Shown: positions 6,123 through 41,865, counted from the stretch's first letter. The stretch: DNA of 64,000 nt from an uncultured Candidatus Saccharibacteria bacterium (GCA_964532425.1 CAZHIA010000005.1:2772-66771), one strand, 5' to 3'. Program-made: numbers and translations. Notes: a model not told the origin generated them from the letters alone.

Positions 6123-7149
6123 TTACTCCACGCGCACGCGCAGGGCTGCAAGTTCTTGCAGGGCCTGCTGGCGCAGTGTTTCGGCGGAAGACCGAAGTTG
6201 CTCCTGGTCGCGGGCGTACTGCTTCAAAGCTGTCTGGTGGTTAGCCAGCAGCTCGTCCACAGCAGCCTGGTGCGAGGCATACGCGAGTTGGTACTCGCCG
6301 AATGCCTGCTGGTACGAACGCTCCTGTTCCAGGTTGTAAGCCCGTACGGCGTCCTTGACCTGCTTCTTCAGCCCGTTCAGCTGCTTCTGCAGGTCATTGT
6401 ACTCAGCTTGAAGCGCGTTACGCTGCTCGGCGAAACCCACCAGCTCTTCGGCGGAGTACGCCTTCTCCCACCGGGTCACGACGACACCGGTCTGAGTCAT
6501 TTGCTCACCGCCTTTCGGCAGCGGACGAATGAGCTCGCGGAAGAGGCTCCCCTGCTCGGAGAGCAACTTGCCGATTGCAGCGGCGCGGGCGTTCAGTTCG
6601 TTCGCCTTTTTCCAGAAAGCGAAATCGAACTGCGCGAGAACCGCCGGCTTCAGGTTCGCTATCATCTCGTCGATGTTCGCGATGTCCATGAAGCGATCAG
6701 TTTCGCAGACCGTGGCAAGAGCGGGTCGCTCGGGCAGCTGCGGCGGTTCCGGAAGCTTGGGTCGCTCGGGCGCGTTCGACAGCTGCGGCGATAAGAACCT
6801 TCGCAGGTCCATCGACTCCAGCTCCTGTTGCAGGCGTTTGTACAACTTCACACCGTGCATCAGAACAGCCGTGACCGCGTTGCGCTCCGCCACCCCCGCA
6901 TACCCTTTCAGGTCTTCGGGCGTGACTTTCGGGCCGTCAATAGTCTGCGGTGTAGAGTTGCCAGCGCCAACGAACGACAGAACCTTGCGGAACACGCCGG
7001 CAACCGCATCGGTAATGCGGCCCCAGAACTCGTCGTTCTGCTGCTTGGCTTCGGCTTGACGGCGAGCGACCTCGGAGATCGACACACCACCGTTGTTGGT
7101 AAAGAACGTCGGCACCTGAGTGCCGAAAATCATGGTGAGTTTTTCCATG
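6123..7149 (-). CDS. hypothetical protein with C-terminal coiled-coil region (341 aa)
   Basis: SD GAGGGGG before comp. ATG 7149 (MEKLTMIFGTQ...). The C-terminal 130 aa is rich in Q/E/A/L heptads. Adjacent to rsr. Confidence 0.55.
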
Positions 7150-7506
7150 GTTTCCCCCTCTAAAACCATGATAAGTTCATGGCTTGAGAGGAGGAGAGAT
7201 GAAAATAATCATCTCTGCTGATTGCAATCAAAGTTGATTGCTTTCATCTTCCCTCCTTTTCGTTTTTAACAACTGGTGTGCGACCAGTATCACCCCGAGT
7301 TTAATGTCCCGCAGGCTCCCTGGACACTCCCCTTTAATTTGTCACTGATCCGGAACGGATCCCCGAGTACGCAGGACGCGTACTCGGGAGGCTTTCGGTC
7401 TTTTATAGCCCAGTGCTCCCGCCCTTTCTCCGCCGAGTGGCGGACGAAAGAGCGGGATTCGCGCAGTCAGACAGGGGCCCCGAAGAATTCGGGGCGGGCG
7501 GCGAAT

Positions 7507-9249
7507 TTAGGATTCGTCGCCCATCTGCGCGTCGCTGACGGCTTGCCCCGGCACCTCTAAAGGTGCCTGGGTCTGCCGGTCCTCTCGTGCCGCAAGTTGC
7601 ATCCTGCTAATCTCCCGAACTTGGCTTGCGCCGCCTTCGAGCATCAACGGAATGTACTTAACGACCGAGTCGCTCCATCCGTAGATGAAGTGAACGCCCG
7701 GTTCGCCGAACGGTGCAACAGCCGCTTTGTACGGCGCGATGGTCACCAGGAACGCTTGCGCGTCCTGGTTCACTTCGCGCTTGTACTGGCGCCATTGATC
7801 GAGGAATGAACCAGAGCAATCGTAATCGCTCTGGCCATACGCCCAATCAACGTTGTCGGTGATGCCGATGAACGCATCCACGCGAACCTTACGTTCGCGC
7901 AAATACTGGATCGGCGCCCCGACAGCCGTGCTGCCACCGCAGTACCCAGCAAGTCGTTGCGTGACGGACATAATGTCGTCACGCTTCGACAGGCCATGGT
8001 CCGGGTGAACCCATCCGTCGAACGGGAGCAGGACAGCCCGATTCTCGATGCGCCGCAATAGTGCGCCGGAAAGGATACCACAGATATCGATGTAACGCGC
8101 AGTCCCCTTTTGGGAGACCCGCGAACTCATCGAGCCCGAGACATCAGATCCGATCGCAACCGTGCGGCTGCCGAAAGACGGCATGCAGGCAAAGGAAAGG
8201 TTCAGCGCTTCGCGGAGAGCATCCGCAATGCGGCTGTCCGGTTCCCAGTTGCCCGCGTGCACAGGTAGCTCGTCGTCAAACAGGGAATCAAATTCATTCC
8301 CTGCGCCGGACGAGTACTTCTTCCAGGCATCGAAAAACCGGAACGGCAGAACCTTCGAACGCTCGACCGCCTGAGGTGAGGTGAGCTTTTCCACCGCCAC
8401 CGCTACACTCTTCTCGTCCGCGAATACTCCATGGCGCGTAAACGCCGCGAGCATGCGCAGGAGATTCATGTACGGGGCTTGGCGAAGCAGCTCTTCCCAG
8501 ATCCTCAACGTCATCCGCTTCATTGCGGGAGCGACGACTTCGTACGGCAACCGGCCATCCTGAATCAGGGTGGCGGCTTCGTACTCAGTTGTCGCCCGCT
8601 TTAAAGCTTCGAACGCGCGGATCTGCGGGTTCAGTGCGGGATCGCTCCCGAGCGCATTCCCCCTTCGTACCAGCCAGTCGAGACGCTCGGCGACCGCGGC
8701 CGTTGCAGGGCGCGGGTGGGTCATGCGAATGAGATCGCGGAGTACGATGCCCTTGGACCGCTTGGATCCGTACTTCAGGGCATGGTATTCCGAGATGTTC
8801 GCAAGCCACCGTGCCACCGCTTTGGCAGCGTAACCGCCGAGGCCACGTTTGCCGGGGATCTGGCCCGAGATCAGGAAAGTTGAAAACTTTCGCAGATCGT
8901 CAGGAAGCAGAACCACGCGGTCGAACGCAGCTTCGAAAGCCTCGCGGGTTTTCCCGCGGCCGGCTGCGAGCAAGGCCAGCGCCTTGACGTTCTGATCCTT
9001 AATGAGCCCCTTGGTGCGGCCGTAGACAACGGCCTTGGCCAGGAACTCCGGATCAGTGTCGCGCGCTCCGATGATCGTCTCCTGCCACTGTTCGTCGAGT
9101 TGACGCTTGGTGGCATAGAACGTATCACCGAAGACACCGACTGTCAGGAGCTGAACTACGCGCTCGCGCAGCGATCGGTTGTAGGCGGGCGCCCCCTCGT
9201 GGTTCACAAGGGACGCCTGGACATTGGCGAGAGTCGAAGTCTGTGTCAT
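7507..9249 (-). CDS. rsr: Ro60/Rsr ortholog (TROVE domain + C-terminal vWA with MIDAS DVSGSMSS)
   Basis: The N-terminus NHEGAPAYNRSLRERVVQLLTVGVFGDTFYATKRQL parallels the Rsr motif NxAGGFVY..RLDRFLILGSEGGTYY. The MIDAS-type motif IGSDVSGSMSS is present. SD AAGGAG before comp. ATG 9249. Confidence 0.82.
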   Translation of the reverse strand: MTQTSTLANVQASLVNHEGAPAYNRSLRERVVQLLTVGVFGDTFYATKRQLDEQWQETIIGARDTDPEFLAKAVVYGRTKGLIKDQNVKALALLAAGRGKTREAFEAAFDRVVLLPDDLRKFSTFLISGQIPGKRGLGGYAAKAVARWLANISEYHALKYGSKRSKGIVLRDLIRMTHPRPATAAVAERLDWLVRRGNALGSDPALNPQIRAFEALKRATTEYEAATLIQDGRLPYEVVAPAMKRMTLRIWEELLRQAPYMNLLRMLAAFTRHGVFADEKSVAVAVEKLTSPQAVERSKVLPFRFFDAWKKYSSGAGNEFDSLFDDELPVHAGNWEPDSRIADALREALNLSFACMPSFGSRTVAIGSDVSGSMSSRVSQKGTARYIDICGILSGALLRRIENRAVLLPFDGWVHPDHGLSKRDDIMSVTQRLAGYCGGSTAVGAPIQYLRERKVRVDAFIGITDNVDWAYGQSDYDCSGSFLDQWRQYKREVNQDAQAFLVTIAPYKAAVAPFGEPGVHFIYGWSDSVVKYIPLMLEGGASQVREISRMQLAAREDRQTQAPLEVPGQAVSDAQMGDES

Positions 9250-9303
9250 CTGAAATCTCCTTTTCTCGATGGGATGTCCGAAGCGCCTTGGGCGCTTGGT
9301 CTT

Positions 9304-9497
9304 CTTGCGGGAAGAGTTTTGTCCAAAATGATAGCGATGTTATACGGCGTCATGCTGAGCCTGCCTGCCGGCAGGCAGGTGCATCCGAAGCATCTCTCTT
9401 ACAAGCGAAGAGATTCTTCGATCGTCCGCTGAAGCGGACTTCCTCAGAATGACGCCTGTATCGTAAACATGTTTTTTAGACAAAACTCTTCCCGCAA
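9304..9497. repeat. MITE-like element with terminal inverted repeats GGCGTCATnCTGAG (core 9346-9456) nested in longer 57-bp imperfect inverted arms
   Basis: Second copy in opposite orientation at 43034-43126 shares the 14-bp terminal repeats and the internal word CCGAAGCATCTCT(CT)TAC. Internal perfect palindrome CCTGCCTGCCGGCAGGCAGG. Confidence 0.65.
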
Positions 9498-10286
9498 TAT
9501 TTCAAAGTGCAAAAGGCTAATAAAAACAGGTATCGCAAAAATGCGTATACCCGATTTACTTTCCTTTACCAGAATCGCTACCTGTATACCGATCCTGATA
9601 AAGGAGGGGTGGCTTTTCGGGCCACCCCACAGGTGTCGCCCCCGATCTTCGGGCAGCGAGTTCCCATGGTTCCTCCTTTTAGGCATGATTGTCTCGAAGT
9701 ACCCCCAACGAGCAGTCCTCCCCCCCGATTTGCACCGGGGATCAATGGACATATTTGCACAAGGCTTGTATTCGTCAATTGGATTGAAGTAGCCTCGTGG
9801 TGTATTCCTCCTCCCGCTTTACTGTTACGGGGATCAACGGATATTGTGCTAGGGGTGGTGTAGCTGTTTGCGGCGGGCCGGACCTCGTAGGCACTTTCCG
9901 GGCGCGTTTCGCCCGGCTCCCCGTCTGGTCCGCAAGGCCGCCCCGCTCTTTCACGAGAGGGACGGCAGACGATGTATTTGTCGAAGTATCCTCGCTTTGC
10001 TGTTCTCGTCCTTCGGTTTCTCTCGAGCTCTCATTCCATCCTCAGAACTTGCCAGCCGCTGCTGGACAAGCCGCCTTAAGATGATTTGATCTCGAAAGAA
10101 ACGGGTGAAGGAGTCAACGAACGAATTCGCAAGGAGTAAAGGCTTCGAGAAATATCCCGCCGCTTTTGCCCCAGGGATTTCAGGTCGGGCCGGATCATCC
10201 GGCTTGCCCTGCCCTGGTTTTACCTGCTCTCGATGAACAGGCGGCTCAGCTCCCTTTCGGGAAAGCTTTTGGGGCATGTTTTGATT

Positions 10287-10392
10287 GTCATTGCGAATCC
10301 AGAAATTTTTAAGCAATAAAATTTCAGGATGAAGCAATCTAAACACCTCAGAGTTGAAGATTGCTTCGTCGGATGCACTCCTCGCAATGACA
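10287..10392. repeat. structured element B, paralogue of element A (5031-5132)
   Basis: Same 10-bp termini GTCATTGCGA/TCGCAATGAC. P1-like stem CCAGAAATTTT/AAAATTTCAGG and an 8-bp GAAGCAAT/ATTGCTTC stem. Additional flanking inverted repeat GAAAGCTTTTGG/CCAAAAGCTTTC. Confidence 0.55.
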
Positions 10393-10995
10393 AAATGTAA
10401 CGTGAACCAAAAGCTTTCCCGAATAATATAGATAGATTGATAAAGATCTTTTTGTTTATTCCTCCCTAAGGCCTACCATAATCGGGTTAATGGCAGGCTT
10501 TGGGCAAGAATAAATGGGCATAATAAAACCGGGATACGGTAATCCTGTTCAGCAATTTGGATTGTCCGTGGTCCCGATTTATAGTTAGCATCTTTTCCAG
10601 TCGCCTGAAGCAGGTAAGGACTCTGGGCTCGCCCCGTTCCCGCCTCTGGCGGGTGCAATAATGCAATAATTGGACGGCTTAACTTTCCTCGGGCTTCAGG
10701 CTGACCGGAACGTGATGTTAATGAATTTTGACAAAGTGCTTTTTGTTTAATTTCAGCTTGCTCGGGTATGCTAGCAGAAAAATAGAGAGTTGTCAAGAGG
10801 TTTTAACAAAAAATTTCCAAAATATAGAAATACCCAATAAACAAGCATAAATTATGACATATATTGTGTTGAAAATAGATATCAAAATGTATGTATTTAA
10901 AGATTTAATGATTGAAAATTTAAAGATTGAGCACTTTCCTTCAACTGCGATTTTAAACCTAATAATCTCAATTTTAAAATATTTGTTAATAGGTA

Positions 10996-11024
10996 TTGAC
11001 AAAATATTGAATCTATGCTAATAT
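10996..11024 (+). promoter_or_regulatory. consensus sigma-70 promoter: TTGACA, 17-bp spacer, TAATAT, preceded by 200-bp AT-rich island
   Basis: TTGACA 10996-11001 and TAATAT 11019-11024. The upstream region 10800-10995 is extremely AT-rich (UP-element-like). Confidence 0.6.
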
Positions 11025-11030
11025 TTGTTC

Positions 11031-11192
11031 AGCTCAGTAAAGCCGGAAATTAGCAGTCTCCGGCCTCGGAAACTCAGATTGCGGTTGAATTCGACGGCAC
11101 AGGAGGTGCTCTTTATGGGTTCTTAAAAGCGGGACGGCCCCGCATCCATCCTTCGCGTTCGATTCGTCGGGCGCGGGGCCGGGATCCCCTTT
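11031..11192 (+). ncRNA. candidate small ncRNA (~160 nt), promoter-to-terminator, no ORF. Possible Y-RNA-like transcript given rsr proximity
   Basis: Starts about 7 nt after -10. Hairpin GCCGGA...TCCGGC. Words GGTTGAATTCGACGG and GCGTTCGATTCG (T-loop-like TTCGATT). Terminal stem CGGCCCCGC/GCGGGGCCG followed by TTTT (11189-11192). Confidence 0.4.
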
Positions 11193-11810
11193 TAAACCTA
11201 TAGAAGCGCCTAAATCAATAAGGAGGTAGAAATATGGGCGGGTTATGAACAACACCGCGTTGGGTTGGTTTATTTTAAAGAGTGTTTGCTGGGGAAATGC
11301 CACCATGGAACGGCTACACACTCCCAGGCGATTACTCGAGAAGTGAACCCAGGAAAGGGTCAGAATGTATATTCGTCGATTTTTTGACCGACTTAGTCGG
11401 TTAGCGAAGAGTACGTAGCCACCCGAAGGGTGGCCATTAACCAATCCACTGATTGTCCGCATGAGAGTCCGGCCGGAAACGCACAAGCATAGCTGCAATT
11501 CCCCCGGACTCTTCTCATATATATTGCTTTGGTGTACTATTTTAGTATAATAGCTTGCGATTGGTATTTTGTAACAGCCGCATTAGGGTGTGGGTCTATG
11601 AAATTCTAAATCTTAATTACGAAATTCTAAACAAATCACAAATCCCAAATTAGAAAATCTCAAACGGAGAGGTTTGGAATTTGAGTTTTGTAATTTGAAA
11701 TTTGTTTAGAATTTAGGATTTCGATATTCGAATTTTCTGACAATATTTTTTGAACATTAAATATTTCCGCGTTTGATCAGCGTTGCTATCGCGTCTGATC
11801 CGCGATCCAT

Positions 11811-12590
11811 ATGAACTTACTTCAAGAACTGCAAAATATTGGCCTAAGTGACAAGGAGGCCAAGGTTTACCTCGCCAATCTGGAGTTGGGCCAGTCTTCG
11901 GTTCAGAATATTGCCAAGAAGGCAGGAGTCAACCGGGCGACCACGTATGTCATTCTGAACTCGCTGATCAAGAAAGGTTTATGCAGTACCTTTGAACAGG
12001 ACAAGAAAACATTGTATGTCGCTTCGGATCCAAATCTGCTTGAAGGCGTTTTTGAAGTCCAAAAAAAGGAGCTGGAAGAGAAGCAAAGATATTTCCAGAC
12101 CATTGTTCCCCAGCTGAACCTCATTAACAACCGCCAGACCGACAAGCCCAAAGTAAAATTTTTTGAAGGCAAACAAGGGTTGATTAACTGCTTCATAGAG
12201 TTTACGGGCTACAATGGGGGTAAAGATGATTATTTCCGGTTGGCATTCCATCGTGATCGTTTAGAAAAGATTTTTACACCCGAAGAGAATGCGCGTTTTC
12301 GCGAAATGAGAAAGAAGAACCAGGGCAGCAGCAAAAGCAAAGTTTTATACAATAGCAAAGTACCAATTTCAGACACCACTGATGCCTTGCGCATACGACT
12401 GGATGAAGATAAATTCCCCCTGCCATGCGACATTGGAGTATTTGGAGATAATATCCGCATCCTCTCCGAAAGCAAGGAACTTTCCGGTATCCTTATTGTT
12501 GACCATGATATTGCCACCACCCTCCGTTCCCTCTTTGAGCTAGCCTGGGAAGCGGCTGAAGCCCGGGCGAAAAAATCCAAAGCAAGTTAA
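11811..12590 (+). CDS. TrmB-family transcriptional regulator (N-terminal wHTH)
   Basis: N-terminus LSDKEAKVYLANLELGQSSVQNIAKKAGVNRATTYVILNSLIKKGL resembles the TrmB/ArsR-type HTH. Upstream region has tandem and inverted AT-rich repeats. Confidence 0.65.
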   Translation: MNLLQELQNIGLSDKEAKVYLANLELGQSSVQNIAKKAGVNRATTYVILNSLIKKGLCSTFEQDKKTLYVASDPNLLEGVFEVQKKELEEKQRYFQTIVPQLNLINNRQTDKPKVKFFEGKQGLINCFIEFTGYNGGKDDYFRLAFHRDRLEKIFTPEENARFREMRKKNQGSSKSKVLYNSKVPISDTTDALRIRLDEDKFPLPCDIGVFGDNIRILSESKELSGILIVDHDIATTLRSLFELAWEAAEARAKKSKAS

Positions 12591-13127: not shown

Positions 13128-14198
13128 ATGGAACCAGCCTTACAGAAAATTTTAGACGAATATCATCAAATCACGGAACAAATGTCATCCGGGAACGGTT
13201 TTGACTTGGCTCGCCTCGGCAAGCGCCAGTCCGAACTTTTGCCGACCGTGGAAAAAATTCAGGACCTGGCCGCCAAAGAAGCTGAAAAAGCCGATAATGA
13301 AAAATTACTGGATGACGCAGATTCGGAAATCAAATCCATGGCTTTGGACGAGATAAAACGGCTGGAGTCAGAAATCTTGAATTTGCAATCGGAAATCGAA
13401 AACGATTTGATTCCCCGCGACCAGGACGATGACAAGGATGCCATATTGGAAATTCGCGCCGGAGCAGGCGGGGACGAATCCACGCTGTTCGCCGCGGAAA
13501 TGTTTCGCGCCTATGGAAAATTTGCCGAAGAGAACGGTTGGAAGCTGCATATTGTCTCCTCGTCAAAATCCGATGCCGGGGGCTTTAAGGAAGTCATTGC
13601 CGAAATTCATGGACGCCCCAGCCAGCAAGCCGGTCCATATTCTAAATTTAAATACGAGAGCGGAGTGCATCGTGTACAGCGGGTACCGGACACGGAAAAA
13701 GCCGGCCGTGTGCATACGTCTACCATTACGGTGGCAGTTTTGCCGATATTGGAAGAAAAAGATTATTCCATCGCGGAAAAAGATTTGAAAATAGAAGCCA
13801 CGACTTCCAGCGGCCATGGCGGGCAGTCGGTAAACACAACGTACTCGGCCATAAGAATTCTGCACATTCCCACCGGCATCACCGCGCAGTGCCAGGATGA
13901 GCGCAGCCAGGCACAAAATCGGGAGAAGGCCATGGCCGTAATCCGCGCTCGCGTCGCAGCGCATTACCGCGAAATAGAGGAAAAGAAAGTCCGTGACCTC
14001 ACAAAATCCCAAATCGGCACCGGTGACCGCAGCGAAAAGATCCGCACATACAACTTCCCGCAGGACCGCGTGACTGACCATCGCATTAACCAGAACTTCA
14101 ACCAGATCAATCTCATCATGGAAGGAAAGCTGGAAGACATTACCTCTTCTCTGCAAAAAGCGGACCTGGCAGCCAAGAAGGAAGCGTTAAAAAAATGA
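13128..14198 (+). CDS. prfA: peptide chain release factor 1 (GGQ motif present; tripeptide PDT at the PxT position)
   Basis: SSGHGGQSVNTT and RVQRVPDTEKAGRVHTSTITVAVLP are present. Followed by prmC as in the classical prfA-prmC operon. Confidence 0.9.
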   Translation: MEPALQKILDEYHQITEQMSSGNGFDLARLGKRQSELLPTVEKIQDLAAKEAEKADNEKLLDDADSEIKSMALDEIKRLESEILNLQSEIENDLIPRDQDDDKDAILEIRAGAGGDESTLFAAEMFRAYGKFAEENGWKLHIVSSSKSDAGGFKEVIAEIHGRPSQQAGPYSKFKYESGVHRVQRVPDTEKAGRVHTSTITVAVLPILEEKDYSIAEKDLKIEATTSSGHGGQSVNTTYSAIRILHIPTGITAQCQDERSQAQNREKAMAVIRARVAAHYREIEEKKVRDLTKSQIGTGDRSEKIRTYNFPQDRVTDHRINQNFNQINLIMEGKLEDITSSLQKADLAAKKEALKK

Positions 14199-14224: not shown

Positions 14225-15112
14225 TTGACGATTCGGGAAGCTATCACAAAATTTAGACAAGTTGAAATAGAACTCCTTTTGGAACATGTGCTCAATAAAC
14301 CGAAGGAGTTTTTGTTCATGTATCCGAACCATCGATTGACCGGGATTCAAAGTAACAGGTTAGCGCTGATGGTTGCCAGACGTATGAACGGAGAACCGAT
14401 CGCATACATTCTCGGGTACAAAGATTTTTGCGGTTTGCGGTTTAAGGTCAACAAACATGTGTTAATCCCCCGCCCGGAGACGGAGTGGCTGGTGGATCGA
14501 ATCGCGAACGATGTAGTTACCAAGGGAGGGTCTCGACCCTCCCCTACAAAGGCAGTGACGCCCGTCACTATTCTCGATCTTGGTACCGGCTCAGGCTGTA
14601 TTGCTATTATGCTGGCACATAAGCTTGCAGACAGTAGAATTACTTTTGATATCACTGCGTCCGATATCTCCCCTGCCGCCCTGACAGTAGCCCGCTCCAA
14701 TGCAAAAACCATACTTGGAAAAAAGTCCAATAGTCTAAACTATCAGACTATTCGCTTTGTGCGATCTGACTTATTTATAAGAGTCAACGGAATATTTGAC
14801 GTCATTGTTGCAAATTTGCCTTATGTGCCCCGGAAGATCTATCAGAAATTACATCAGAATTTAAAATTCGAGCCAAAAAGCGCGCTCATTGACCCCAAAC
14901 AGGATTTTGGTATATATGAAAGATTTTTGGCACAAGTACCGGAACATGTCCATGACGGGTCAATGATCTATTTGGAAATTGACCCTTTGGCGCGCAAGGT
15001 TATCTCTCAAGCCGTAAAAGAATACCTACCCGGATGGAAAGTAAAGTATTTTAAAGATTTTCGGGGGTTGTGGAGGTATGGAGTGATTTCGCAGAGTGGT
15101 GGTTATTATTAG
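14225..15112 (+). CDS. prmC: release factor glutamine N5-methyltransferase PrmC/HemK (motif IV reads NLPY instead of NPPY)
   Basis: HemK-like N-domain and SAM-binding LDLGTGSGCIA. DVIVANLPYVP aligns to the NPPY catalytic motif. Confidence 0.8.
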   Translation: MTIREAITKFRQVEIELLLEHVLNKPKEFLFMYPNHRLTGIQSNRLALMVARRMNGEPIAYILGYKDFCGLRFKVNKHVLIPRPETEWLVDRIANDVVTKGGSRPSPTKAVTPVTILDLGTGSGCIAIMLAHKLADSRITFDITASDISPAALTVARSNAKTILGKKSNSLNYQTIRFVRSDLFIRVNGIFDVIVANLPYVPRKIYQKLHQNLKFEPKSALIDPKQDFGIYERFLAQVPEHVHDGSMIYLEIDPLARKVISQAVKEYLPGWKVKYFKDFRGLWRYGVISQSGGYY

Positions 15113-41138: not shown

Positions 41139-41237
41139 TAACCGCGGATATATCGCTGATAGCGACGCTGAATAGACGCTGATAAAAAGAAACGCCCGGG
41201 ACCGGTAAGGGTCTCGGGCGTTTGTTGATATCAATGG

Positions 41238-41618
41238 TTAGCTAGTGGGTTGTTGTGCCATGGCTGGCGATGCGCAGTGGTCGCCGCGCCGCATGACAAT
41301 CTTCTTCTCGTTCGTACTACGGTCGGTATGCATGACTATCAGCGCGTTACCTTCGCGATCGATCGTGAAATTGTCCCTTCGATCCTCAGGTTCAACGGCT
41401 TGCCCTGCTATTACGACGAGGGTTCCGTAGTCTTTGTGCGTCAGCACAATCTCTTCTTTGTCTCCGGTAACACCTGTGGCGACCTTTGCTTCTTCAATCT
41501 TCTGGTCCCACTTCATCTTTTCGATGGTCTGGTACGATTCGTACCAATTCCACCCACAGATGCCTGCGATGATCGCAAACAGCACGACCAGAATAATCCA
41601 CCCACTCGATGAATTCAT
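41238..41618 (-). CDS. hypothetical membrane-anchored protein (126 aa)
   Basis: N-terminal TM helix WIILVVLFAIIAGICGW. Confidence 0.5.
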   Translation of the reverse strand: MNSSSGWIILVVLFAIIAGICGWNWYESYQTIEKMKWDQKIEEAKVATGVTGDKEEIVLTHKDYGTLVVIAGQAVEPEDRRDNFTIDREGNALIVMHTDRSTNEKKIVMRRGDHCASPAMAQQPTS

Positions 41619-41787
41619 AAATTGCCTCCTGTTTTCTGTTCAATACGGCTTGGGTACTATCTGGCCATATTGACCCTATATTATAGCATAACTATGCGAT
41701 ATTGTCAATAGCCAAAACCCTAGGTTTTCGCTATATTTATTGGGTATATTTACCATTCTATTAATTTTACGCAACTTTTAGATCATT

Positions 41788-41848
41788 TGTAGCGTGCCGA
41801 TTTATCGGCCAAATTCGGATTGATGTCGCCGATAAATCGGCACGCTAC
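41788..41848. repeat. 62-bp palindromic element, copy 2
   Basis: Arms identical to copy 1 (3931-3992). Immediately upstream of dus. Confidence 0.7.
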
Positions 41849-41865
41849 GGTTCTGCTACTATTCT

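What the first reader, a model, noticed from the sequence alone, without database searches (positions are those of the whole stretch)
10800..11192. AT-rich island plus textbook sigma-70 promoter driving a ~160-nt terminator-bounded transcript with tRNA-like sequence words
TTGACA, a 17-bp spacer and TAATAT (10996-11024) sit at the end of a ~200-bp stretch that is far more AT-rich than anything else in the window. The downstream 160 nt have no SD or ORF. They contain GGTTGAATTCGACGG and GCGTTCGATTCG, reminiscent of tRNA and tmRNA T-arm/acceptor words such as GGATTCGACGG and GTTCGATTC. They end in a 9-bp GC stem followed by TTTT. Given the neighbouring rsr gene, a tRNA-mimicking YrlA-type RNA is one possibility. 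The promoter strength suggests an abundant small RNA.
Basis: partly seen in the sequence, partly recalled or inferred. Interest (0 to 1): 0.65.

Follow-up and report, generated by a model that had tools for sequence, protein, structure and literature searches.

The report
Conserved mini-ORF leader RNA, not tRNA-like
The flagged promoter is real. It drives the start of a roughly 0.5-kb RNA, conserved in Patescibacteria, whose hallmark is two strongly ribosome-binding three- to four-codon mini-genes; it is not a tRNA-mimicking Y RNA.

Summary
**Observation.** The AT-rich island (GC 0.21, the lowest in the window) and the TTGACA-17-TGnTAATAT promoter (10996-11024) are real. The promoter is conserved in more than 20 related loci.

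- The downstream RNA does carry an SD and an ORF: AGGAGGTG (11101-11108), then ATG GGT TCT TAA (11115-11126).
- A second SD and mini-ORF follow at 11220-11248 (MGGL*).
- The "terminator" is the base of a long hairpin (11104-11211) whose 3' arm pairs back onto mini-ORF1.
- The conserved unit runs on to a terminal hairpin at about 11460-11520, just before the promoter of a TrmB-like regulator gene.

**Conservation.** The unit is promoter, SD plus mini-ORF1 gated by a hairpin, open SD plus mini-ORF2, then a terminator. It recurs upstream of TrmB-like genes down to about 45% protein identity.

**Against a Y RNA.**
- The tRNA-like words are absent from 19 of 20 relatives; one has a 2-mismatch match to one word.
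- Rfam and ARAGORN find nothing.
- The Ro60-binding motif is absent.
- The RNA lies on the opposite strand to rsr.
- rsr is a lineage-specific insertion.

**Best reading.** A translated-minigene regulatory RNA that senses ribosome loading. Whether it attenuates transcription into the TrmB-like gene or acts on its own is inferred, not shown. It matches no Rfam family, and five full-text searches found no description.

The parts
10808..11007 (.). AT-rich spacer between two divergent strong promoters
   Evidence: It has the lowest GC (0.21) of all 200-nt windows. An AT-rich spacer of about 170-250 nt, unrelated in sequence, lies between the same two promoters in L003, L004, L005, L007, L088 and L090.
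10996..11024 (+). Promoter: -35 TTGACA (10996-11001), 17-nt spacer, extended -10 TGCTAATAT (11016-11024). The predicted start is about 11031.
   Evidence: Found by the consensus scan. The same TTGACA(A/G)AAT...TGnTAnnnT promoter was found by pattern or by eye at the equivalent place in all 21 related units.
11031..11520 (+). Predicted transcript: the conserved mini-ORF RNA unit. The 3' end is inferred from the conserved terminal hairpin.
   Evidence: The order of parts is shared by 21 loci. There is no Rfam family match.
11042..11099 (+). Lineage-specific 5' leader with two small hairpins (11042-11064 and 11080-11099).
   Evidence: Fold. Leader length varies from 11 to 323 nt among relatives. 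The word is absent from all 20 relatives.
11101..11108 (+). Shine-Dalgarno 1 (AGGAGGTG)
   Evidence: Sequence. It is conserved as (A/G)GGAGG in all 21 units, 4-8 nt before the start codon.
11115..11126 (+). Mini-ORF1: ATG GGT TCT TAA (Met-Gly-Ser-stop)
   Evidence: In 17 of 21 units it is exactly Met plus 2 codons plus stop. The second-codon wobble base varies while Gly is kept, and stops vary among TAA, TAG and TGA.
11104..11211 (+). Hairpin 1. SD1 and mini-ORF1 form the 5' arm of the lower stem. The 9-bp GC stem is 11135-11143 with 11173-11181. The run TTTT 11190-11193 pairs with AAAA 11125-11128. The word GCGTTCGATTCG (11155-11166) lies in the variable apex.
   Evidence: MFE folds. In a swap test, ORF1 pairs with its own downstream 20-150 nt better than with that of other loci (p=1.4e-4, n=21). 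Arm pairs by eye include AUGAACGAU/AUCGUUCAU in L014 and GGAUGAC/GUCAUCC in L089.
11220..11248 (+). Shine-Dalgarno 2 (AAGGAGGT, 11220-11227) and mini-ORF2: ATG GGC GGG TTA TGA (11234-11248, Met-Gly-Gly-Leu-stop)
   Evidence: A second SD plus mini-ORF is present in 19 of 21 units. It is not specifically paired with downstream sequence (swap test p=0.8).
11460..11520 (+). Terminal hairpin (AUGAGAGUCCGG...CCGGACUCUUCUCAU). It corresponds to the intrinsic terminator that ends the unit in relatives.
   Evidence: BLASTN conservation at 11504-11540. The close relatives vary between GAGTCCGG/CCGGACTC and GAGCCCGGGG/CCCCGGG. Distant relatives have a clear GC hairpin plus T-run here. In the window the U-run is poor, and the scan did not call it.
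11524..11551 (+). Putative promoter of the TrmB-like gene (TTGCTT, 16-nt spacer, TATAAT)
   Evidence: Read from the sequence. A TATAAT-like box lies 20-40 nt after the terminator in nearly all relatives. This is inferred only.
11811..12590 (+). TrmB-family HTH regulator gene, the only gene always found next to the RNA unit. It has no SD.
   Evidence: Pfam PF01978, E=1.2e-15. It has 695 homologues, some of which sources name as Patescibacteria proteins.
10768..10796 (-). Divergent partner promoter (TTGACA, 17-nt spacer, TGCTAGCAT) that shares the AT-rich island
   Evidence: It is conserved in L003, L004, L005, L007 and L088.

Best explanation
**What it is (shown).** The flagged stretch is the promoter region and first third of a conserved RNA unit of about 490 nt, found in a clade of Patescibacteria. 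The AT-rich island is the spacer between two back-to-back strong promoters.

The rightward promoter makes an RNA built from these parts:
- a near-perfect Shine-Dalgarno sequence at optimal spacing before a 3-codon mini-ORF (Met-Gly-Ser-stop here);
- a long GC-rich hairpin whose 3' arm pairs back onto that mini-ORF;
- a second strong SD with a 4-codon mini-ORF, not held in a specific hairpin;
- a variable 200-400-nt tail;
- a terminator hairpin directly in front of a TrmB-like regulator gene.

**How it probably works (inferred).**
1. Ribosomes can load on mini-ORF1 only while the RNA is nascent, or when the lower stem is open.
2. A ribosome initiating or terminating there keeps the base of hairpin 1 unzipped. 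In this genome that base carries the U-run.
3. The RNA therefore reports how quickly SD-competent ribosomes engage a new transcript.
4. That report is converted into a choice of RNA fold or fate. The most likely output is how much transcription, or stable RNA, continues towards the TrmB-like gene.

This is an attenuator-like, translation-sensing leader of the minigene/uORF type. It is not a tRNA mimic.
For: **Architecture is conserved.** It is found in 21 units from independent metagenomes and genomes, with TrmB identity of 100% down to about 45%.

**The mini-ORFs look translated.**
- All 40 SD-preceded starts are followed by a stop within 4 sense codons. Only 22% of 183 other ATG/GTG in the same transcripts are.
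- SD-to-start spacing is 4-8 nt for ORF1.
- The Gly wobble base varies synonymously, Asp varies GAC/GAT, and stops vary.
- None of these mini-ORFs was found on the opposite strand of the units' upstream regions; across all 85 loci scanned, two distant loci (L041, L067) had one each.
- Only 5 such elements occur in the window's 128 kb of both strands, and 2 of them lie here, 119 nt apart.

**Hairpin gating of ORF1.** Supported by folds and by the swap test (p=3.5e-4 and 1.4e-4).

**Strong SDs are unusual in this genome.** Only 9 of 42 likely genes in the window have even a 4-mer SD core.

**Gene linkage.** The link to the TrmB-like gene persists while the other neighbours change. prfA-prmC follow only in the 5 closest loci (6 contigs), and rsr is present in only 2 lineages.

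**Precedent for the mechanism.** In Salmonella, the tiny uORF mgtQ lies in stem region 1 of alternative hairpins, and its translation remodels downstream structure (PMC8092293). A two-codon minigene acts in cis in axe-txe (PMC8708949).
Against: - No RNA-seq, Ribo-seq or end mapping exists, so transcription, translation and the 3' end are all inferred.
- The TrmB-like gene seems to have its own TATAAT box just after the terminator. Read-through control may therefore be minor, and the RNA may be an independent gene.
- The 200-400 nt between mini-ORF2 and the terminator are not conserved in sequence, and I found no antiterminator.
- A simple relay model, in which a ribosome on ORF1 changes SD2 accessibility, was not consistently supported by constrained folding (the script stopped after 13 of 19 loci).
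- The U-run after hairpin 1 is specific to this genome and a few others.
- In the 5 closest relatives the ORF1/3'-arm pairing is weaker in the swap test than in distant ones.
- MAFFT/RNAalifold could not recover hairpin 1, so there is no formal column-wise covariation count.
Confidence: 0.5

Rival explanations
1. The unit is an independent, abundant small RNA that acts in trans. One version is a decoy or parking site that titrates SD-competent 30S or 70S ribosomes in a genome that rarely uses SD. Another is a base-pairing RNA whose 5' mini-ORFs only stabilise or fold it. In either case the TrmB-like protein would be its neighbour or regulator, not its target.
For: - The promoter is strong and conserved, and the unit has its own terminator.
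- A TATAAT box after the terminator suggests that the TrmB-like gene is a separate transcription unit.
- The RNA has two 7-8-nt SDs, while only 9 of 42 window genes have an SD core.
- The long variable 3' domain could carry lineage-specific targets.
- From my own knowledge, not from a paper read here: sRNA genes often sit next to their regulator gene.
Against: - There is no conserved single-stranded seed in the 3' domain.
- The fixed tandem, same-direction placement directly before the TrmB-like gene fits a cis role equally well.
- Titration would need stoichiometric abundance, which is unknown.
Confidence: 0.3
2. The RNA is a release-factor or termination-capacity sensor that autoregulates the downstream TrmB-prfA-prmC operon. 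Ribosomes would pause at the mini-ORF stop codon when RF1 is scarce.
For: - In the window and its 5 closest relative loci the next genes are prfA (RF1) and prmC.
- The stop codon lies in the stem base, so a paused ribosome would open hairpin 1.
- In the six close-clade units (window, L003, L004, L005, L007, L088), mini-ORF1 ends in TAG in four and TAA in two.
Against: - prfA and prmC are not near the TrmB-like gene in any more distant locus that still has the RNA.
- Stops are mixed: ORF1 has TAA 8, TAG 9, TGA 4; ORF2 has TGA 8, TAG 9, TAA 2.
- The window's own ORF2 ends in TGA, which RF1 does not read.
Confidence: 0.08
3. The RNA is a YrlA-type or other tRNA-mimicking Y RNA that partners the neighbouring Rsr (Ro60) protein.
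For: - rsr (TROVE plus vWA_Ro60 domains) lies 1.8 kb away at 7507-9249.
- The RNA contains words loosely like T-arm or acceptor sequences.
Against: - It is on the opposite strand to rsr.
- It has no GNCGAAN0-1G motif.
- There is no tRNA, tmRNA or Y RNA hit, even at E<=10.
- The words are essentially absent from the 20 homologous units.
- The unit is present in many loci without rsr.
- rsr is an insertion that splits a leader from its gene: the orthologue of the 342-aa protein lies at 6123-7169.
- The conserved features are SDs and mini-ORFs.
Confidence: 0.02
4. The region is protein-coding, for example the 154-aa ORF on the minus strand (11034-11498), or the mini-ORFs occur by chance.
For: An ORF of 154 aa overlaps the region on the minus strand.
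Against: - The ORF has no Pfam hit.
- Gene callers found no consistent ORF here in relatives.
- DNA conservation is patchy and follows the RNA features.
- Chance is excluded by the mini-ORF statistics.
Confidence: 0.02

Closest known systems
mgtQ, the 8-codon uORF in the Salmonella mgtC-mgtB intergenic region (PMC8092293)
   Same: - It is a very short ORF lying in the 5' arm (stem region 1) of a hairpin.
- Ribosome occupancy of the ORF decides which downstream structure forms.
- Acidic codons matter there, and Asp is the commonest last codon here (23 of 40 mini-ORFs).
   Different: - mgtQ is 8 codons, occurs once, lies inside an operon, and frees the RBS of the next gene.
- Here there are two 3-4-codon ORFs at the 5' end of a transcript of its own that ends in a terminator.
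- No downstream RBS is evidently controlled here, and the TrmB-like gene has no SD.
- There is no sequence relationship.
Minigenes: phage lambda bar (two-codon ORFs with an SD; from my own knowledge) and the axe-txe mg2 two-codon minigene (PMC8708949)
   Same: - Each has an SD, a start codon, 1-2 sense codons and a stop.
- They act through the act of translation, not through the peptide.
- They act in cis.
   Different: - Those are single, species-specific elements.
- bar acts through peptidyl-tRNA drop-off in pth-defective hosts.
- Here the elements are tandem and gated by a hairpin, and the unit is conserved in 21 related loci, down to about 45% identity of the neighbouring protein.
Leader-peptide attenuators upstream of regulators or resistance genes (ermC, cat86, and the whiB7 leader; from my own knowledge)
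   Same: - A long 5' RNA with uORF(s) and an intrinsic terminator precedes the controlled gene.
- The element senses ribosome status.
   Different: - Those leader ORFs are 8 to more than 20 codons, with defined stalling peptides and a recognisable antiterminator close to the uORF.
- Here the ORFs are 3-4 codons, and the terminator is 200-400 nt away.
- No antiterminator was found here, and a promoter-like box follows the terminator.
YrlA / bacterial Y RNAs (Chen et al. 2014, PMC4201824)
   Same: It lies within 4 kb of an rsr gene and is a non-coding transcript of about 100-200 nt if cut at hairpin 1.
   Different: - It is on the opposite strand to rsr.
- It has no GNCGAAN0-1G motif and no conserved T- or D-arm.
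- It is conserved in loci that lack rsr.
- It carries SDs and mini-ORFs.

Membership tests
YrlA / bacterial Y RNA | Encoded within 4 kb of the Ro60 orthologue and on the same strand (PMC4201824) | tested here: not met
   It lies 1.8 kb from rsr, but on the + strand; rsr is on the - strand.
YrlA / bacterial Y RNA | GNCGAAN0-1G motif near the 5' end (putative Ro60 contact) | tested here: not met
   Neither strand has a match between 10371 and 13523.
YrlA / bacterial Y RNA | Nearly invariant T- and D-like stem-loops (tRNA-like domain) | tested here: not met
   ARAGORN finds 0 genes. There is no tRNA-clan or Y RNA hit at E<=10. The tRNA-like words and the GGTTCGAWYCC consensus are absent from 20 homologous units, apart from one 2-mismatch match to GCGTTCGATTCG in L030.
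YrlA / bacterial Y RNA | Co-occurrence with rsr across genomes | tested here: not met
   The unit is present in L003, L004, L007, L009-L019, L022, L030, L031 and L088-L090, with no rsr in the fetched flanks. rsr is present only in the window and in L005/L006.
tmRNA / tRNA | Acceptor/T-arm tRNA-like domain detectable by ARAGORN or the Rfam models | tested here: not met
Intrinsic (Rho-independent) terminator at 11131-11193 | Short-loop GC hairpin immediately followed by a U-rich tract; conserved if functional | tested here: inconclusive
   The stem is GC-rich, but the apical part is 29 nt long and only 4 U follow. The scan did not call it. A U-run after hairpin 1 is missing in most relatives.
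Translated minigene / uORF regulatory leader | SD at functional spacing, a start codon and a very short ORF with an in-frame stop, conserved as a reading frame rather than as sequence | tested here: met
   All 40 SD-preceded starts have short ORFs, against 22% of control starts. Spacing is 4-8 nt. Wobble positions and stop codons vary.
Translated minigene / uORF regulatory leader | The ORF overlaps an RNA structure that a ribosome would disrupt | tested here: met
   This holds for ORF1: folds and the swap test, p=1.4e-4. It does not hold for ORF2 (p=0.8).
Translated minigene / uORF regulatory leader | Actual translation of the mini-ORF and an effect on a downstream gene | not testable with these tools
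   This needs toeprinting, Ribo-seq and reporter fusions.
Any Rfam 15 family | A covariance-model match | tested here: not met
   There are 0 gathering-score hits in the window and in 4 close loci. In 13 distant loci the only hits are flanking tRNAs.

The most novel reading that the evidence does not exclude
These units are a previously undescribed, Patescibacteria-wide class of abundant "mini-ORF RNAs". They would monitor or titrate the pool of ribosomes able to use Shine-Dalgarno pairing, in genomes that otherwise mostly initiate without SD. They would thereby set the level of a global TrmB-like regulator. Such a translation-status sensor would be built from 3-codon genes rather than from a stalling peptide or a ligand pocket.
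Probability: 0.25. Interest if true: 0.8.

Novelty: new variant of a known kind. Interest (0 to 1): 0.6.

Why it matters
Patescibacteria (CPR) have tiny genomes and few known regulators, and I know of almost no described regulatory RNAs in them.

If this RNA really is strongly expressed, it would be one of the first lineage-specific riboregulators defined for the group. Its only invariant features are two near-perfect ribosome-binding sites, each followed by a 3-4-codon ORF, one of them gated by a hairpin.

It gives a concrete, testable handle on two questions:
- how these organisms sense translation capacity;
- what the widespread TrmB-like regulators do.

For annotation, it also warns that an rsr neighbourhood plus tRNA-like words is not enough to call a Y RNA.

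Tried and rejected
1. **Rfam.** I ran gathering-score and E<=10 scans of the window and of 17 related loci. Nothing relevant appeared, only miRNA-like noise on an AT-rich inverted repeat, plus flanking tRNAs.
2. **ARAGORN.** It found nothing.
3. **Anchoring on Rsr in genome contigs.** This gave only two distant CPR loci. They were useless for the flagged RNA but useful later for the rsr-upstream repeats.
4. **Exact look-up of the window's own TrmB-like protein.** It is not on record.
5. **MAFFT plus RNAalifold on hairpin 1 of six close relatives.** The alignment of the 3' halves failed and only 5 trivial pairs were returned. I used a swap or permutation test instead. No covariance model was built.
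6. **RF1-sensor idea.** I rejected it as a general explanation, because prfA linkage is limited to the closest clade and stop codons are mixed.
7. **Relay model.** The idea was that a ribosome on ORF1 changes SD2 exposure. It is not consistently supported, and the script stopped after 13 of 19 loci.
8. **PDB sequence search and NCBIfam for the TrmB-like protein and neighbouring ORFs.** They gave no functional clue beyond the HTH domain.
9. **Literature searches.** I searched for CPR/Patescibacteria sRNAs, leader peptides and RF autoregulation. No description of this element turned up.

Full report
**1.

Most of the raw observation holds.
- The stretch 10808-11007 has GC 0.21, the lowest of any 200-nt window in a 64-kb sequence that averages 0.496.
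- TTGACA/17 nt/TAATAT with a TG extension lies at 10996-11024.
- A 9-bp GC stem (11135-11143 with 11173-11181) and a TTTT run (11190-11193) are present.

Three statements do not hold.
- The RNA does have an SD and an ORF. AGGAGGTG (11101-11108) sits 6 nt upstream of ATG GGT TCT TAA (11115-11126).
- The TTTT run lies 8 nt beyond the 9-bp stem. It pairs with the AAAA that overlaps and follows the stop codon, closing a 108-nt hairpin (11104-11211). The terminator scan does not call this hairpin.
- The tRNA-like words are unremarkable. With up to 2 mismatches they occur 4 and 10 times in the window.

**2. Known RNA families**

- Rfam 15 gives no gathering-score hit anywhere in the window.
- Permissive scans of 9200-12000 give no tRNA, tmRNA, Y RNA, 6S, SRP or RNase P hit at E<=10.
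- ARAGORN finds no tRNA or tmRNA.

**3. Genomic context**

Pfam identifies these genes:

| Gene | Coordinates | Strand |
|---|---|---|
| rsr (TROVE + vWA_Ro60) | 7507-9249 | - |
| TrmB-family HTH regulator | 11811-12590 | + |
| prfA (RF1) | 13128-14198 | + |
| prmC | 14225-15112 | + |

Some homologues of the TrmB-like protein are named by their sources as Patescibacteria proteins.

**4. Relatives**

I fetched loci through TrmB-like homologues: L003-L007, 80 metagenome loci and L088-L090. The region upstream of the TrmB-like gene has one conserved plan:
1. a TTGACA(A/G)AAT...TGnTAnnnT promoter;
2. a short variable leader;
3. AGGAGG plus a mini-ORF, usually Met plus 2 codons;
4. a long GC-rich hairpin;
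5. a second AGGAGG plus a mini-ORF;
6. 200-400 nt of variable sequence;
7. a GC hairpin plus T-run terminator;
8. a TATAAT box;
9. the TrmB-like gene, which has no SD.

The plan is found in 21 units, down to about 45% TrmB identity. It is mostly absent below that.

Mini-ORF1 peptides:

| Group | Peptides |
|---|---|
| Window | MGS* |
| Closest clade | MGN*, MGH* |
| Further out | MGD*, MND*, MDD*, MKD*, MD* |

Mini-ORF2 peptides:

| Group | Peptides |
|---|---|
| Window | MGGL* |
| Close clade | MGQ*, MGA*, MGG* |
| Further out | MSD*, MTD*, MCD*, MED*, MQD*, MDD* |

**5. Are the mini-ORFs real?**

- All 40 SD-preceded starts reach a stop within 4 sense codons. Only 22% of 183 other ATG/GTG in the same transcripts do.
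- SD-to-start spacing is 4-8 nt for ORF1.
- The Gly and Asp wobble positions vary synonymously, and stops vary among TAA, TAG and TGA.
- None of these mini-ORFs lies on the reverse complement of the units' upstream regions; two distant loci (L041, L067) have one each.
- The whole window has five on both strands, and two of them lie here, 119 nt apart.
- Strong SDs are unusual in this genome. Only 9 of 42 likely genes have even a 4-mer SD core.

This pattern is what selection for translation of a very short frame would produce. Selection on a peptide or on plain sequence would not produce it.

**6. Structure**

- In single-sequence folds, SD1 and ORF1 form the 5' arm of the lower stem of hairpin 1.
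- The two arms change together between loci. Examples are AUGAACGAU/AUCGUUCAU in L014, AUGAACGAU/AUCGUUUAU in L090 and GGAUGAC/GUCAUCC in L089.
- A swap test asks whether ORF1 pairs better with its own downstream 20-150 nt than with that of other loci. It gives p=3.5e-4 (n=18) and p=1.4e-4 (n=21).
- ORF2 shows no such specificity (p=0.8). So ORF1 is gated by the hairpin and ORF2 is open.
- MAFFT/RNAalifold failed to align the 3' arm, so I have no column-wise covariation count.
- The apex of hairpin 1 is unrelated between lineages, which argues against a ligand pocket. In the window it holds the word GCGTTCGATTCG.

**7. Why this is not a Y RNA**

Chen et al. 2014 (PMC4201824) describe YrlA RNAs by four features. 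The RNA here fails every one.

| Feature | Result here |
|---|---|
| Same strand as rsr, within 4 kb | Opposite strand |
| GNCGAAN0-1G motif near the 5' end | Absent |
| Nearly invariant T- and D-like arms | No tRNA-like signal |
| Co-occurrence with rsr | Present in many loci without rsr |

rsr is a lineage-specific insertion.
- In L003, L004 and L007 a conserved minus-strand leader is followed directly by a 342-361-aa protein that has no Pfam match.
- In the window the orthologue of that protein lies at 6123-7169, beyond rsr.

**8. Gene linkage**

prfA-prmC follow the TrmB-like gene only in the five closest loci (six contigs). In more distant loci the neighbours differ. I therefore dropped an RF1-sensing model, along with the mixed stop codons. 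The one constant neighbour is the TrmB-like gene.

**9. Mechanism (inferred)**

- The 5' arm carrying SD1 and ORF1 is transcribed about 70-100 nt before its pairing partner. A ribosome can therefore load on the nascent RNA.
- While the ribosome initiates or terminates on the 3-codon frame, it covers the lower stem, including the stop codon and the next 12 nt or so.
- In the window this would separate the GC stem from the U-run and disfavour termination at 11193.
- In general it would change which fold the downstream RNA adopts.
- The closest worked example is mgtQ in Salmonella (PMC8092293). Two-codon minigenes acting in cis are also known (PMC8708949).
- Two outputs remain possible: read-through into the TrmB-like gene, or the fate or activity of a free-standing RNA. 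The TATAAT box after the terminator favours separate transcription units. The fixed tandem placement favours a cis link.
- A simple relay to SD2 was not supported.

**10. Novelty**

There is no Rfam match in the window or in 17 related loci. Five full-text searches of the held library found no description. The kind of element is known: a uORF or minigene leader. The specific design and its conservation across a Patescibacteria clade appear to be new.

**11. The other side of the AT-rich island**

The leftward promoter (10796-10768) drives a conserved, structured leader of about 320 nt (10440-10770, minus strand). RNAalifold predicts 42 pairs, 13 of them with compensatory changes, and a terminal hairpin that sequesters the SD.

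Between that leader and rsr, on the rsr strand, lie repeated units with a shared 5' CCGUUGAUCCC and 3' CGAGGNUACUUC. The same units recur upstream of rsr in three other CPR lineages. These are better candidates for Rsr-associated RNAs than the flagged region.

Noticed in passing
window 10440-10770 (- strand); L003 4715-5100, L004 4960-5225, L005 4855-5180, L007 3855-4140, L088 215-555: A conserved, structured leader of about 320 nt is driven by the divergent promoter. RNAalifold gives 42 pairs, 13 of them with compensatory changes. It has an invariant loop CCCGAU (AUCCCGAUU in four of six units) and a terminal hairpin that sequesters the SD (GGGAGGAA). In L003, L004 and L007 it directly precedes a 342-361-aa protein with no Pfam match. 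There is no Rfam hit. It may be a novel riboswitch-like or translational leader.
   Followed up: partly
window ~7170-10440: rsr and its upstream region look like a 3.3-kb insertion between the minus-strand leader and its gene. The orthologue of the 342-aa protein (about 62-65% identity) lies at 6123-7169, downstream of rsr. L005/L006 carry rsr at the same site, while the close relative L007 does not.
   Followed up: partly
window 9681-9758, 9770-9846 and ~9970-10070 (- strand); L005 4372-4472 and 4612-4773 (-); L001 5400-5740 (+); L002 5400-5720 (+): Tandem units of 75-160 nt lie upstream of rsr on the rsr strand. They share a 5' (U)GUCC/CCGUUGAUCCC and a 3' GGAGGA...CGAGGNUACUUC(G/U)A. The units occur in four rsr loci from three or more CPR lineages. 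They are plausible Rsr-associated (Y-like) RNAs. Rfam does not recognise them, and the alignment and fold were inconclusive. The ORFs called there (131 aa and 102 aa) have no Pfam or NCBIfam match.
   Followed up: partly
window 11115-11126 and the equivalent ORF1 in 20 related loci: The last sense codon of mini-ORF1 is NAY in 19 of 21 units: Asp 13, His 3, Asn 2, Tyr 1. From my own knowledge, these are the codons read by queuosine-family tRNAs. Asp is also the commonest last codon of mini-ORF2 (10 of 19). The reason is unexplained. It could be a nucleotide-level constraint of the stem, or a decoding or termination effect.
   Followed up: no
window 11600-11723: A long AT-rich inverted repeat of about 120 nt lies between the putative TrmB promoter and the TrmB-like start codon. 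It is absent from relatives, where the -10 box is about 35 nt from the ATG. It caused the miRNA-like Rfam noise, and looks like an inserted hairpin or MITE.
   Followed up: no
window ~10290-10400 and ~9330-9460: Palindromic MITE-like repeats are present (for example GTCATTGCGAGGAGTGCATCCGACGAAGCAATC...). One is inserted right after the SD of the minus-strand leader. Similar short repeats occur in other loci, for example L014.
   Followed up: no
window 9590-9665 (- strand): AAGGAGGAACC ATG GGA ACT... is a strong SD plus a 29-codon ORF. The ORF runs into a GC hairpin (9606-9628) that the scan calls a minus-strand terminator, just upstream of rsr.
   Followed up: no
whole window: Shine-Dalgarno use is low. 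Only 9 of 42 likely genes have a 4-mer SD core within 20 nt of the start, and the TrmB-like, prfA and many other genes have none. Gene starts were not curated.
   Followed up: partly
window 41680-41708 (- strand): A perfect consensus promoter (TTGACA/17 nt/TGCTATAAT) points into the 41139-41865 intergenic region, between two plus-strand genes. It may mark another non-coding transcript.
   Followed up: no
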